64,000 bases of DNA from an uncultured virus (IMG/VR IMGVR_UViG_3300032299_001035) (taxonomy: Duplodnaviria; Heunggongvirae; Uroviricota; Caudoviricetes): IMG/VR virus record IMGVR_UViG_3300032299_001035; one strand, 5' to 3'. Position numbers and translations under genes: made by a program. The notes under the pieces are model-generated. The model had not been told where the DNA came from. It did not search any database and was given only the letters and a program-made list of their open reading frames with translations. Positions 22,900 to 40,588 of this stretch are shown piece by piece. Each line of letters starts with the position of its first letter. Within the stretch, counting starts at the first letter, position 1.

Positions 22900-23715
22900 A
22901 TGTTGCTTAAAAACGGTTCAAAAGGAGAAGAAGTTAAACAACTTCAAAAAAAATTAGGCTTAGCTGCTGATGGAATATTTGGTAATGGTACAGAAGCCAA
23001 AGTAAAAGAATGGCAAGCTGCTAATGGATTAACTGCTGATGGTATAGTAGGAGATGCTACATGGTCTAAAATGTTTGGATTAACTCCTGTAGCTGCTACT
23101 GCAATACCAGCATCTGATTTTAAATTAGCTAACCTAAAAGGACATCTTCCTGATGCAGTAATTGCACAAATTCCTGATACAGCAAAGAAATTTAACATAA
23201 CTAATCCTTTAAGATTAGCTCATTTCTTAGCACAATGTGGTCATGAATCTGCCGGTTTTAAAGCTGTATCTGAAAATTTAAACTATTCAGCTGATGGTTT
23301 AGTTAAAATATTTGGTAAATACTTTAATTCTGCTACAGCTGCTGCATATGCACGTCAACCAGAAAAAATTGCATCTAAAGTTTATGCTAATAGAATGGAA
23401 AATGGTAATGAAGCTTCTAAAGATGGTTGGAAATTCCGTGGAAGAGGTTACATTCAATTAACTGGTAAATCAAATTATACATTATTTGATGCAACAGTAG
23501 AAGATAACATACTTGCAAATCCAGATTTAGTAGCAACTAAATATCCTTTAGCTTCAGCAGCTTTCTTCTTTGATTCTAATAAACTTTGGTCTATTTGTGA
23601 CTTAGGGGCATCAGATGATGTTGTTACTAAAGTTACTAAAAGAGTAAATGGAGGTACAATTGGTTTAAGTGCACGCATTAAAGAATTTAAAGAATTTTAT
23701 AAACTTCTTTCTTAA
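22900..23715 (+). CDS. Endolysin: peptidoglycan-binding domain plus GH19 chitinase-like catalytic domain
   Basis: ADGIFG..T and ADGIVG..TW repeats; AHFLAQCGHES; ENLNYS; FRGRGYIQLTG; RVNGG. Confidence 0.92.
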   Translation: MLLKNGSKGEEVKQLQKKLGLAADGIFGNGTEAKVKEWQAANGLTADGIVGDATWSKMFGLTPVAATAIPASDFKLANLKGHLPDAVIAQIPDTAKKFNITNPLRLAHFLAQCGHESAGFKAVSENLNYSADGLVKIFGKYFNSATAAAYARQPEKIASKVYANRMENGNEASKDGWKFRGRGYIQLTGKSNYTLFDATVEDNILANPDLVATKYPLASAAFFFDSNKLWSICDLGASDDVVTKVTKRVNGGTIGLSARIKEFKEFYKLLS

Positions 23716-24419
23716 TGGATTATCAAAAAATATATAATAATTTAATGTCTACAAGACTTTTGTTAAAAAAACAAAGGTATGCAGATAAAAAATTAGGAAT
23801 TTATTTTGAAGGACATCATATACTTCCTAAAGCTAAAGGAGGTACTGGTACAAGTAGTAGAGGATTAAATAATTCTAATATAGTTTTTTTAACTGCTCGT
23901 GAACATTTTTTAGCTCATTGGTTATTATGGAGAATACATGGTGACAGATCTTCTGCTTTAGCATTTCATAAAATGATGTCAACTAATAAAAATCAAAATA
24001 GAATTAAATCTTCTAAAGGATATGAAGAAGCTAGATTAGCTTTTAGTGAAACAAACAAAGGAAACCAATATGGTAAAGGTCAAATAAAAATTGTTTCTGA
24101 AGAACAAAAAAAGCGTCAATCTGAATTAATGAAAGGTAGATATACGGGTGAAAAAAATCCATTTTATGGTAAAATTCATAGTAAAACTACTAAACATTTA
24201 TTAAGTGAAAAAGCTAAATTACGCCCTATGGAATCATTAGGTAATTACAAAGGTATAAAACAAGTAATTTTTAATGAATTAATTGTAGGAGAATTTAAAA
24301 GTTCTAAAGAAATTGCTGAATTCATAGGATGTTCTCATAGTAATGTAAGACATGTATTATCTGGTAAACAAAAAACAGCTAAAAAATTTAAAATTATATA
24401 TAAACTTTTAATATTATAA
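23715..24419 (+). mobile_element. Free-standing HNH homing endonuclease with NUMOD3-like DNA-binding repeats
   Basis: EGHHILPK...NIVFLTAREHFLAHWLL; GEKNPFYGKIHS; C-terminal HTH; TAATG overlap with the lysin stop. Confidence 0.85.
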
Positions 24420-37892: not shown

Positions 37893-38726
37893 TTAAAAAA
37901 TGTATCTAATATTTGCTAAATTAAAGAATTCAGAGTAAATTTTCTTAAATTCTTCTATTAATTTTGTTTTATGTATTAAAGGATACCTCATTATACCTGA
38001 AGAATTTTTAATTTCAGAACTATATTTCATAATTTTTTTAGATTCTTCTGTAGCTTTTTCCATTTGTCTAGCATGATTAGTAAGAGCTATAACTTCACAT
38101 TTATGTTCTCCTACTACTTCTTTAACTTCTTTAAATAGATTATAATAGTATTCTTTCCAATTTAAATAAAATATTAAAGGACTAAAATTAATATGAACTT
38201 CCCAGCCTAAATCTTTAAGTCTATTAATGTCTTGTATTCTACTAGATATTTTTTGCATCTTAGGTTCTAGTACATCTGAATACTCTTGTGGCATTAAACT
38301 AACCCTTACTCTGGGTTTTTTATTAAAATGTGTAACATCTAATTCTAATAGACTTGGATATTTAGTTGCCATAGTACTATTTAATCTGGGATGATCATCA
38401 TATCTTTTAAGATAGTCTAATAAAGGTTCAGGCATATGCTTCTGCATTAATACCAAATCTGAATTACAACTAACATCTACCATTGTATATACAGGATCTT
38501 GTTGGTCCGGTATCTTTGTATAGGATTTTTCCCATTCTACAACAGAATTAAATATATCATCTACATTAGTATTTACATACACCCTAGTATTATTATTTCT
38601 AGACATATAGCAATATGTATTAACACATCCTCCAAAACAACCATAAATAACATTAGGTGCAATACAGTTAGCACTGTTATCATTAGGTTTTGTTATAAGG
38701 GTTTTAGTTTTTTGTAGTTTAATCAT
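37893..38726 (-). CDS. splB: Spore photoproduct lyase-like radical SAM protein
   Basis: YGCFGGCVNTYCYM; DVSCNSD; ATKY; RVRVSLMP; EVHINFSP; EVIALT. Confidence 0.75.
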   Translation of the reverse strand: MIKLQKTKTLITKPNDNSANCIAPNVIYGCFGGCVNTYCYMSRNNNTRVYVNTNVDDIFNSVVEWEKSYTKIPDQQDPVYTMVDVSCNSDLVLMQKHMPEPLLDYLKRYDDHPRLNSTMATKYPSLLELDVTHFNKKPRVRVSLMPQEYSDVLEPKMQKISSRIQDINRLKDLGWEVHINFSPLIFYLNWKEYYYNLFKEVKEVVGEHKCEVIALTNHARQMEKATEESKKIMKYSSEIKNSSGIMRYPLIHKTKLIEEFKKIYSEFFNLANIRYIF

Positions 38727-39055: not shown

Positions 39056-39265
39056 TTATTTTTTAAAAGTTTCGTTATAATATTGTTCTGCTTTTTTTGT
39101 AAAAAATGAATAACATCCATCGTCCCAAGCATCAATTATCTGTTTCATTTCCATTTGTTTAGCTTGTTTAAATGATTTTTCTAATTTATCCCATTCAATA
39201 TCTAATGGTAATATAATATCCAATTTAAAAATTAACCATTCAACTGCTGTTTGTTGCTTTTCCAT
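39056..39265 (-). CDS. TAVxW...AEQYYNET family small protein
   Basis: Paralogous to 21168-21386. Confidence 0.75.
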   Translation of the reverse strand: MEKQQTAVEWLIFKLDIILPLDIEWDKLEKSFKQAKQMEMKQIIDAWDDGCYSFFTKKAEQYYNETFKK

Positions 39266-39639
39266 ATTATTTTTCTGTATTTTAATGATGTAAAATCTGT
39301 TGTAGATGTCATAACATCAATGTTATCTATCATATTTTTAAAATATGGTTCACATTCATAATGGTCATGTGCTTTTTTATTAAGATGTATAACACTGGTA
39401 TGATCTTTAGGAATTATACTAATAACTTCACCAGCAGTTTCTAATTTATAACCTTTCTTTAATAAGAAATACACAGCTATTTTACGTGCATTTACAAATT
39501 CAGGCTTTCTAATCTGACTTACTAAGTTATTAATACTAACCTTTGTTTGATCACATATATTACTAAGTAGGCTATATTCATAACCATTTAATTTTTTAAG
39601 ATGTTTTTTTACTTCTTGGTCTGTTGCTGTTTTATTCAT
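39232..39639 (-). CDS. DnaA C-terminal (domain IV)-like HTH protein
   Basis: RKPEFVNARKIAVYFL...G...KDHTSVIH. Confidence 0.75.
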   Translation of the reverse strand: MNKTATDQEVKKHLKKLNGYEYSLLSNICDQTKVSINNLVSQIRKPEFVNARKIAVYFLLKKGYKLETAGEVISIIPKDHTSVIHLNKKAHDHYECEPYFKNMIDNIDVMTSTTDFTSLKYRKIIWKSNKQQLNG

Positions 39640-39661: not shown

Positions 39662-39892
39662 TTAAAAAGCAACTTTAGAATATTTACTTATATCAAAAAA
39701 TCCATTACCATCATCAAAATTATATAAATCTTTTACAGCAATGTGTGGTTTAATGTTTAATTTTTTAATACTTTTAGTTAATACATGTGGAGTTGTATTT
39801 GCTATATTACATAATTGAGTATTACTCATTAAACCATAATTATGTTTTATGATTTCTATTTGTTCGTCTGTTAAGACAATTTTTGCTGGCAT
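39662..39892 (-). CDS. Small HTH-like protein
   Basis: LTDEQIEIIK.NY..MSN..L. Confidence 0.6.
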   Translation of the reverse strand: MPAKIVLTDEQIEIIKHNYGLMSNTQLCNIANTTPHVLTKSIKKLNIKPHIAVKDLYNFDDGNGFFDISKYSKVAF

Positions 39893-39924
39893 ATTTTATT
39901 TGTTTTAATTGTTTTTAAATTAGT

Positions 39925-40022
39925 AGCCAAGACAAGTACTGCCCTTGTTGCTGGATCTTTTGCCTTCATATTTTACAATACTACTCAACTTCACTCCCGT
40001 GTTACTTTTACACCACCTGACT
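39925..40022 (-). ncRNA. tRNA-like element 2 (no canonical anticodon arm)
   Basis: Acceptor AGUCAGG/CUUGGCU; D-arm GUGU/ACAC; T-arm ACAAG-GGCAGUA-CUUGU; central GUAUU-GUAA-AAUAU hairpin. Confidence 0.7.
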
Positions 40023-40159
40023 ATTTGATGAGGTTGGAGGTTTTAAGTCTTCCCATAAGTACTCATCACCTATTCTGCCTGATAGGACTTAACATTCATG
40101 AGAAGGTCAAAGTTCTCCAATGTCTGTTACTGTTCTATTTGACATCAAGTAACTGCAGC
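40023..40159 (-). ncRNA. Unassigned structured RNA between the two tRNA-like elements
   Basis: Four hairpins; loop-loop GUCAAA/UUUGAC and UUAAGUC/GACUUAA complementarity. Confidence 0.55.
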
Positions 40160-40259
40160 AGTCAGAACAGGATTTGAACCTGTAACTAGTTGTTAAAACT
40201 AGTACGTTACCTCAATATTTCTATTTTCAACTGCTGTCTACCAATTCCGCCACCTGACT
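40160..40259 (-). ncRNA. tRNA-like element 1 (Leu-type scaffold, no canonical anticodon arm)
   Basis: Acceptor AGUCAGG/UCUGACU; UGGCGGAAUUGGUAGAC D-region; variable stem ACUAGUU/AACUAGU; T-arm ACAGG-UUCAAAU-CCUGU; central AAUA-GAAA-UAUU. Confidence 0.8.
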
Positions 40260-40360
40260 ATTTGAACTTTTAAAACCCATCTTTTACAAGGTAAGGAAAC
40301 TCCATTCAATGTTTTTTGCTTCTTGCTTTTAAGGACAGATCTTTCCTTTAAACAAAAATA

Positions 40361-40588
40361 TTATTCAAAAGATTCATCTTTTAATAGTATATATGTTGGT
40401 ATTAATGTAACAACAGATAATATACTAAGCAATGATATTACAATGTAATTACAAGGTAATCCTAATGCAAAAGATAATTCTCTATCAGTTACCATACCTT
40501 TTATTACATCTAATAATAAGATTATAGAAGTTGCTTCTAATAAAATGCAATAAAGAAATAAAATTTGTTTTATTGTTTTTCTTTTCAT
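40361..40588 (-). CDS. Small two-TM membrane protein
   Basis: Two hydrophobic segments. Confidence 0.6.
   Translation of the reverse strand: MKRKTIKQILFLYCILLEATSIILLLDVIKGMVTDRELSFALGLPCNYIVISLLSILSVVTLIPTYILLKDESFE

What the first reader, a model, noticed from the sequence alone, without database searches (positions are those of the whole stretch)
39925..40259. Tandem tRNA mimics with a GNRA hairpin in place of the anticodon arm
Seen: two minus-strand elements of 100 and 98 nt share the acceptor 5' strand AGUCAGG, within a 16-nt identical repeat ccacctgactatttga at 40013-40028 and 40250-40265. Each has a fully paired 7-bp acceptor stem and a 5-bp T-stem with 7-nt loop. Element 1 has a Leu-type D region and long variable stem; element 2 has a GUGU/ACAC D-stem and an atypical T-loop GGCAGUA. 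In both, the anticodon arm is replaced by an extended arm ending in an AU stem with a GNRA tetraloop (AAUA-GAAA-UAUU; GUAUU-GUAA-AAUAU). In element 2 that hairpin sits on an AGUA/GAA internal loop resembling the bulged-G (sarcin-ricin/loop E) motif. No CCA is encoded. Two different sequences giving the same architecture argue for selection rather than decay. Inference: non-decoding tRNA mimics acting as decoys for tRNA-targeting defences, or as RNase P and 3'-processing signals that excise the RNA between them.
Basis: partly seen in the sequence, partly recalled or inferred. Interest (0 to 1): 0.85.

Follow-up and report, generated by a model that had tools for sequence, protein, structure and literature searches.

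The report
Swappable anticodon-less tRNA mimics of phages
This freshwater phage carries two RNA genes shaped like tRNAs that cannot read codons; they belong to a large, uncatalogued phage family whose tRNA-like frame stays fixed while the middle is swapped, and they may serve as bait for bacterial enzymes that attack tRNAs.

Summary
Both elements are real and under selection, but the GNRA hairpin is not what defines them. Element 1 belongs to a large phage family (class A, 314 distinct copies found, up to 11 in 6 kb). It keeps an AGUCAGG acceptor stem, a T-arm and tRNA-type ends. Its centre is hypervariable: 190 clusters among 230 parsed, and 3 of 314 copies have a usable anticodon arm. Element 2 belongs to a distinct, single-copy subfamily (class B) with no Rfam match. 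Its cloverleaf is supported by covariation, its T-loop is the GGCRGUA type of alphaproteobacterial tmRNA, and it has a conserved A-rich internal loop. Its bulged-G/GNRA arm is an optional add-on. A sister phage lacks exactly the 237 bases between the two 16-nt repeats, and centres are exchanged between identical flanks, so the frames act as recombination cassettes. Best reading: non-decoding tRNA mimics, cut out like tRNAs, most likely decoys for host enzymes that read the acceptor/T half. Function and expression are untested. Closest known: T4 RnaC/RnaD, function unknown.

The parts
40159..40259 (-). Element 1, class A tRNA mimic: AGUCAGG acceptor, Leu-type D region, private centre, canonical T-arm. 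It departs from the family by an extra A in the D-stem, U66, A57 and G73.
   Evidence: Extra A in 0 of 314 others; G73 in 22, U66 in 15 and A57 in 27 of 314.
40214..40225 (-). AU stem with GAAA loop in element 1 (marginal, not a family feature)
   Evidence: Pair probability 0.4-0.65; no homologue found
40185..40203 (-). Variable-arm-position hairpin of element 1. Rfam aligns it as an anticodon arm (UAA), but with C37 and a 2-nt variable region.
40167..40183 (-). T-arm of element 1
39924..40022 (-). Element 2, class B tRNA mimic: AGUCAGG acceptor, D-loop AAAAGUA, T-loop GGCAGUA
   Evidence: 31-sequence alignment, 97.8% of cells paired, 9 of 21 pairs with two-sided change; identical in sister phage L343
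39953..39997 (-). Central arm of element 2: covarying 3-bp base stem, conserved GUGA/AAAAGA internal loop, second stem
39962..39989 (-). Optional extension of element 2: AGUA/GAA bulged-G-like loop and GUAA-capped stem
   Evidence: Related arm in 6 aligned sequences with covarying stems; absent from most class B members. The motif name is recalled.
39932..39948 (-). T-arm of element 2 with GGCRGUA-type loop
   Evidence: GGCAGTA in 20 of 24 copies found by their 5' half; same loop type in an alphaproteobacterial tmRNA
40250..40265 (-). 16-nt direct repeat, copy 1 (leader plus 5' end of the frame); boundary of the 237-bp indel
40013..40028 (-). 16-nt direct repeat, copy 2
40023..40158 (-). Non-coding spacer, gained or lost together with element 1. 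Its 5' part weakly resembles the RNA that follows frames in L060 and L030.
   Evidence: nhmmer E 0.021 and 3.2
40266..40321 (-). Recurrent non-coding module upstream of element 1, also next to frames in L097, L198 and L160
   Evidence: nhmmer E 8.8e-7, 1e-5 and 0.02; no Rfam family at cut-off
40353..40360 (-). Possible Bacteroidota -7 promoter element (TAnnTTTG; consensus recalled)
   Evidence: kept in L343; weak on its own, with 62 such sites on this strand of the window
39662..39892 (-). 76-aa ORF starting 32 nt after element 2; no Pfam or PHROG hit

Best explanation
These are genes for non-decoding, tRNA-framed small RNAs of a Bacteroidota-type phage. SHOWN by comparison: selection keeps the acceptor stem, T-arm, D/T elbow and tRNA-type ends and releases the anticodon region; frames are multi-copy, and their centres and intervening DNA are exchanged, gained or lost at the conserved frame ends. 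INFERRED: the host's RNase P, 3' trimming and CCA-adding enzyme cut them out and finish them as they do the phage's real tRNAs, giving stable free RNAs like T4 RnaC. INFERRED and least certain: their job is to act as decoys or competing ligands for host enzymes that recognise the acceptor/T half of tRNA (tail nucleases, toxSAS pyrophosphokinases, acceptor-stem tRNases). Such enzymes would otherwise stop translation in the infected cell; a mimic that cannot decode can absorb them at no cost to translation. Class B (element 2), single-copy with a conserved internal loop, probably has one specific partner.
For: Among 114 copies found by their 5' half only, the unconstrained 3' acceptor strand pairs back (103-113 of 114 per position, mostly with G.U variants), with A73 in 95 and C74 in 103. 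T-loop U55, C56 and A58 are invariant and variation sits at positions 57 and 59 (one search was anchored on the consensus, so part of this is by construction). GG is in the D-loop of 294 of 314. Leader and trailer match the 128 canonical tRNAs of the same loci (U-1, A-2; C74 in 309 of 314 vs 127 of 128; CCA rarely encoded) and host-phylum tRNA-Ile (A73-C74 in 29 of 29). A canonical anticodon arm occurs in 3 of 314, against 100 of 128 controls. Copies number up to 11 in 6 kb, beside a near-complete ordinary tRNA set. 21 of 307 have a promoter-like motif within 20 nt upstream, 11 at exactly 4 nt, against 4 antisense. Element 2 has 0 of 98 changes in a sister phage whose next ORF has 22 of 231. 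Enzymes that read only this half exist: Cas12a3 binds T-arm, acceptor and tail and tolerates loss of loops (PMC12851939); FaRel2 reads pairs 1, 2, 4 and 5 (PMC11245113); two CdiA toxins cut uncharged tRNA-Ile in the acceptor stem (PMC9071432). Pairs 1-4 plus A73 of the frame equal tRNA-Ile(GAU) in 16 of 29 host-phylum genes read. That 3' end marked tRNA-Ile in 9 of 10 hits in 5 genomes.
Against: No expression, processing or binding data were obtained. The acceptor sequence is not obligatory: an acceptor-free scan gave 23 AGTCAGG mimics and 22 mimics with other fully paired acceptors among 116 distinct hits, and 5 of 19 class B copies have compensated acceptors. The Ile likeness may therefore reflect origin and gene conversion, not a target. 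No host defence system was linked to these phages. A decoy needs no conserved central loop, yet class B has one. Element 1 is dispensable (absent in L343) and has G73 and a bulged D-stem. No conserved partner gene lies beside class B.
Confidence: 0.42

Rival explanations
1. Natural tRNA scaffold: the frame only gets the RNA cut out and protected, and the working part is the folded centre, an aptamer-like domain with its own partner. The frames let phages trade these domains.
For: The class B core is conserved with two-sided changes in all 3 base-stem pairs and occurs once per record in 19 of 20 records picked for it. Class A centres fold better than shuffles on average (mean z -0.82; 15% below -2). 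One centre cluster shows crossing helices with a compensatory change (read by eye). The same centre recurs in different flanks (74 pairs) and with different acceptors (L112 vs L468).
Against: 162 of 190 centre clusters are singletons and lengths run from 25 to 231 nt; so many distinct partners is hard to credit. Many short copies have almost no centre.
Confidence: 0.25
2. Cis processing punctuation: the frames are RNase P and 3'-nuclease marks that chop long phage transcripts, releasing the non-coding modules or mRNAs between them. The excised mimic is a by-product.
For: Recurrent non-coding modules sit between and beside frames. 112 of 207 copies have another T-loop within 250 nt. An ORF starts within 50 nt in 94 of 288 cases vs 25 of 117 for true tRNAs. 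RNase P acts regardless of sequence (PMC9976931).
Against: Two thirds are not followed by an ORF. Copies lie among real tRNAs that already punctuate the transcript. Some start 4 nt after a promoter-like motif. Punctuation does not need the class B internal loop or centres of 100 nt and more.
Confidence: 0.17
3. Nearly neutral or selfish repeats: dead tRNA genes whose ends are homogenised by gene conversion and which persist as recombination hot spots.
For: Exact 237-bp indel at the repeat. 5 pairs with the same flanks and different centres, 3 of them from one sister pair. One frame carries the same body as a phage tRNA-Ile(UAU) (L280 vs L140). A Sak4-like annealing protein is encoded in the window.
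Against: Changes respect RNA rules (G.U wobbles, positions 57 and 59, compensatory pairs). D- and T-loops change together in class B. 0 of 98 changes vs 22 of 231.
Confidence: 0.1
4. Codon-blind leucine carriers: charged by LeuRS and used outside decoding, or as a sink for EF-Tu or leucine.
For: 210 of 314 class A copies keep A15, U48, GG+A and A73. E. coli tRNA-Leu lacking the anticodon and variable arms is still charged (PMC9976931).
Against: D-arms are swappable for class I types. Class B lacks the GG. Element 1 has G73, a LeuRS antideterminant.
Confidence: 0.05
5. Decoding tRNAs with introns, or antisense guides carried in a tRNA frame.
For: Rfam aligns a UAA-containing hairpin of element 1 as an anticodon arm after skipping 32 nt; 3 of 314 frames hold canonical arms.
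Against: That fold has C37, a 2-nt variable region and the worst energy of five tested. No shared splice boundary is visible. The best matches of 29 centres to their own records were 9-19 nt, about the level of shuffles; hosts were not tested.
Confidence: 0.01

Closest known systems
Phage T4 RnaC and RnaD (species 1 and 2 small stable RNAs; AF158101 70908-71046 and 71053-71171)
   Same: Small RNAs in a phage tRNA cluster with unknown function. RnaC ends in a canonical T-arm and a tRNA-like tail with a long non-decoding centre.
   Different: No similarity to the class B model (best overlap 5.6 bits, E 3.7). RnaC's terminal pairing is imperfect. The T4 RNAs are one copy each, while class A is multi-copy with exchangeable centres. 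T4 RNA expression is shown (Northern, PMC9697503); ours is not.
Bacterial class II tRNA-Leu and Bacteroidota tRNA-Ile(GAU) (Rfam RF00005)
   Same: Leu-type D region and elbow in most class A copies; acceptor pairs 1-4 and A73 as in 16 of 29 host-phylum tRNA-Ile; same leader and trailer.
   Different: No anticodon arm; acceptor pairs 5-7 differ from tRNA-Ile; the phages' own tRNA-Leu have other acceptors.
Alphaproteobacterial tmRNA (RF01849) tRNA-like domain
   Same: GGCRGUA-type T-loop (GGCGGUA in L552; GGCAGUA and GGCGGUA in class B); no anticodon.
   Different: Class B has U3:A70 or U3.G70, not G3.U70; it has a D-stem, no tag reading frame, and no tmRNA model hit.
YrlA-type Y RNAs (Ro60/Rsr partners; PMC4201824)
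   Same: [quoted passage not shown]
   Different: YrlA's acceptor stem is an internal stem-loop that must be cut open; here the RNA ends form the acceptor. No YrlA hit; no Ro60 among the window proteins scanned.

Membership tests
Decoding tRNA (RF00005) | 7-bp acceptor stem and 5-bp/7-nt T-arm | tested here: met
Decoding tRNA (RF00005) | 5-bp anticodon stem, 7-nt loop with U33 and purine 37 | tested here: not met
   Neither element has one; 3 of 314 class A copies vs 100 of 128 controls
Decoding tRNA (RF00005) | Aminoacylation and ribosomal decoding | not testable with these tools
   Needs biochemistry
tRNA-Leu identity set | A73, A15:U48, G18G19, A20a | tested here: inconclusive
   All four in 210 of 314 class A copies; element 1 has G73 and element 2 lacks GG
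tmRNA (RF00023/RF01849) | G3.U70 alanine determinant | tested here: not met
   U3:A70 or U3.G70 in all 31 aligned class B copies
tmRNA (RF00023/RF01849) | Tag reading frame and pseudoknots; Rfam match | tested here: not met
   No hit at E up to 10 in 39700-40500 or at E up to 0.05 on 12 class B loci
Alphaproteobacterial tmRNA | GGCRGUA-type T-loop | tested here: met
   (one alphaproteobacterial example read; the general consensus is recalled)
YrlA Y RNA | Permuted topology, Rfam match | tested here: not met
   The RNA ends form the acceptor stem; no YrlA hit
YrlA Y RNA | Adjacent Ro60/TROVE gene | tested here: inconclusive
   None among 38 (PHROGs) and 18 (Pfam) window proteins; not all ORFs were scanned and the genome is not held
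T4 RnaC/RnaD-type tRNA-like stable RNAs | T-arm and tRNA-like 3' end with a long non-decoding centre, in or near phage tRNA clusters | tested here: met
   This window itself has no true tRNA gene.
T4 RnaC/RnaD-type tRNA-like stable RNAs | Sequence homology | tested here: not met
   (class B model only; no class A model was built)
T4 RnaC/RnaD-type tRNA-like stable RNAs | Accumulates as a discrete stable RNA in infection | not tested
   No read data obtained; RNA runs hold at most 0.16 of the region's words and exist as contigs only

The most novel reading that the evidence does not exclude
A phage-encoded, recombination-diversified library of RNA decoys. The conserved tRNA frame serves both as the processing and recognition module and as homology arms for swapping central domains. 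The products titrate tRNA-end-targeting immunity (Cas12a3, toxSAS, acceptor-stem tRNases), which ordinary phage tRNAs are said not to escape easily. Class B would be a specialised member with a rebuilt elbow and a dedicated partner.
Probability: 0.22. Interest if true: 0.88.

Novelty: new variant of a known kind. Interest (0 to 1): 0.66.

Why it matters
Phage tRNA-like RNAs of unknown function (T4 RnaC/RnaD) have stayed unexplained for decades. Here is a family with hundreds of natural variants that shows which parts selection keeps, which makes the question directly testable. [quoted passage not shown] Class B is a well-defined structured RNA missing from Rfam. In practice, ARAGORN gives some of these frames amino-acid labels (for example Pro, Glu, Ile, Tyr, Leu, Cys), which can distort counts of phage tRNAs.

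Tried and rejected
The window's genome is not held; the nearest record has no match to the elements. BLAST of the locus and of an element-rich cluster against cultured phages found no family member among the rows listed (one 22-nt hit; 40 of 67 records listed, all matching ordinary tRNA parts of the query). Homologues of element 1's centre: 3 chance hits. GNRA as a family feature: rejected. C74 as a special block to 3' processing: rejected, since true tRNAs share it. Antisense or guide targets in the phages' own records: none above shuffles in 29 centres. A conserved neighbour gene for class B: none in 16 loci plus the window. A cellular version: 13 stretches on 11 MAG contigs among 185,579 genomes; class B model 1 of 150 host-phylum genomes, on an already known phage-like contig, with only 28 candidates scored per genome. 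Strict Ile-acceptor mimicry: weakened. Hammerhead-like reading of the spacer: considered by eye, core bases do not fit, no Rfam hit. Sigma-70 promoter and terminator scan: nothing above shuffles. GGCRGUA was not found in the paper library.

Full report
Observation. ARAGORN calls nothing in the window. Rfam tRNA hits element 1 only, at 39.7 bits. Neither element folds better than shuffles.

Setting. The window is an AT-rich tailed phage with terminase, portal, major head protein, DNA polymerase and a Sak4-like annealing protein. The terminase is about 25% identical to those of crAss-like and Flavobacterium Fpv20-type phages. Lake and freshwater DNA runs hold 0.26-0.32 of the region's words. A Bacteroidota host is inferred, not shown. 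The elements lie in a non-coding gap among small genes.

Class A (element 1). In 114 distinct copies found by the 5' half (4 more had no 3' half within reach), the 3' acceptor strand, which was not searched for, pairs back, and the centre runs from 25 to 231 nt. Pooling loci gave 314 distinct copies (anchored on the consensus, so conservation there is partly by construction). Positions 55, 56 and 58 are invariant, 57 and 59 vary as in tRNA, and GG is in the D-loop of 294. The D-arm is exchangeable. Leader and trailer match those of 128 true tRNAs from the same loci. Of 314 centres, 230 could be parsed and fall into 190 clusters; 189 were long enough to fold. GNRA loops occur in 13 against 5.4 expected, and mean folding z is -0.82. 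Three of 314 copies have a canonical anticodon arm. 31 of 36 records have a close 3' half, up to 11 within 6 kb, interleaved with a near-complete ordinary tRNA set. In GTDB the 5' half occurs in 13 stretches on 11 MAG contigs, 5 of them labelled Bacteroidota, so it is essentially a phage element.

Class B (element 2). Scans gave 15, 34 and 21 stretches. All 24 distinct copies found by the 5' half have a T-arm, with GGCAGUA in 20. On 31 aligned sequences, 97.8% of cells pair and 9 of 21 pairs change on both sides, above all 500 shuffles and all slid controls. Relatedness can inflate this, and I drew the structure from the same sequences. The conserved core is a D-loop AAAAGUA, a 3-bp base stem, a GUGA/AAAAGA internal loop and a short second stem. 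The tip is a small loop in most members and a longer arm in some; six long-arm sequences share the bulged-G-like loop with covarying stems, and four of them end in a GNRA loop. The T-loop type is the one found in an alphaproteobacterial tmRNA read here, but class B lacks G3.U70 and any tmRNA or other Rfam match. It occurs once per record in 19 of 20 records chosen for it, with no conserved neighbour gene.

Cassette behaviour. L343 is a sister phage in which element 1's upstream flank runs straight into element 2: exactly the 237 bases between the two 16-nt repeats are missing. Whether this is a gain or a loss is not known, and one metagenome contig could be misassembled at a repeat. Element 2 is unchanged there (0 of 98), while the next ORF differs at 22 of 231 bases. 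Among 309 copies with flanks, 5 pairs have the same flanks and different centres (3 from one sister pair, G006/G012), and 74 pairs share a centre in different flanks. One frame carries the body of a phage tRNA-Ile(UAU), so frames also exchange with real tRNA genes.

What the frame imitates. Pairs 1-4 and A73 equal tRNA-Ile(GAU) in 16 of 29 genes read from the presumed host phylum (loci came for 30 of 92 matches). That 3' end marked tRNA-Ile in 9 of 10 hits in five genomes picked mostly for having such a gene (three checked by ARAGORN, the others by position). The elbow of 210 of 314 copies fits the LeuRS set. Against a fixed target: an acceptor-free scan gave 116 distinct hits, of which 30 were canonical tRNAs, 23 AGTCAGG mimics, 22 mimics with other fully paired acceptors (counted by eye), 8 poorly paired and 33 without a T-arm. 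In class B, 5 of 19 have compensated acceptors, though all 19 begin AG. The shape of the top half is required; its exact sequence is only partly so.

Mechanism. Shown: selection on the top half and elbow, release of the anticodon region, cassette exchange. Inferred: processing by RNase P, 3' trimming and CCA addition, from the identical end signatures. Proposed: decoy for enzymes that read the acceptor/T half (0.42). Rivals are a scaffold for a functional centre (0.25, best for class B), processing punctuation (0.17), neutral repeats (0.10) and leucine carrier (0.05). Tests for own-genome antisense targets were negative. No expression evidence was obtained.

What is known. T4 RnaC and RnaD are the closest described RNAs, with unknown function. 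YrlA and tmRNA share parts but fail membership. Ten library searches listed no paper describing this family; I saw only listings for most hits, and the library lacks most subscription journals. Read as passages: PMC12685909, PMC9697503, PMC3014915, PMC4201824, PMC13191261, PMC12851939, PMC9976931, PMC9071432, PMC7609411, PMC12386605; as abstract and passages: PMC11245113. No supplements were read; supplementary tables of structured-RNA surveys could list these motifs. An earlier unchecked note of this scan (e1-5339191) seems to describe class A; it is not independent evidence. Recalled and not from a call: the names bulged-G/loop E, the GGCRGUA consensus and the Bacteroidota promoter motif.

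Verdict. A real, selected, uncatalogued pair of tRNA mimics; the GNRA claim falls, and the family and cassette picture replaces it. New variant of a known but unexplained kind. Interest 0.66.

Noticed in passing
window 40266-40321 (-); L097, L198, L160: A recurrent short non-coding module next to the frames, with no Rfam family.
   Followed up: partly
window 40092-40155 (-); L060, L030: Spacer segment weakly similar to RNA following frames in other phages; these gaps look like arrays of small structured modules.
   Followed up: partly
L445, L452, L453, L455, L481, L498, L500, L509, L543 and others: Many other phage tRNA mimics with a Leu-type D-arm, fully paired different acceptors and long centres: a wider superfamily.
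   Followed up: partly
L446, L447, L456, L461, L462, L465 and others: 33 Leu-type D-arm hits have no T-arm downstream; some may be permuted (YrlA-like) RNAs.
   Followed up: no
L004, L046, L081, L115 centres: A centre cluster whose two helices appear to cross (pseudoknot), with one compensatory change; read by eye.
   Followed up: partly
L141 5547-5617 (-), L205 about 841-916, L088: Frames holding canonical anticodon arms (UUU, UGA, UAC); they may be working tRNAs.
   Followed up: no
L164 1500-1581 (-): Hybrid: class B T-arm with an unrelated D region and centre.
   Followed up: no
L049 1836-2222 (-): Phage tmRNA gene directly beside class A frames.
   Followed up: no
window 37893-38726 (-) and 39232-39639 (-): Spore-photoproduct-lyase-like protein and a DnaA C-terminal HTH protein downstream of the elements.
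   Followed up: no
window 23715-24419 (+): Homing endonuclease gene directly after the endolysin gene.
   Followed up: no
L123-L128, L132: Contigs with the frame in MAGs labelled Neisseriaceae, Peregrinibacteria, Mycobacterium, Rhizobium, Helicobacteraceae and Alphaproteobacteria; probably misbinned phage DNA.
   Followed up: no
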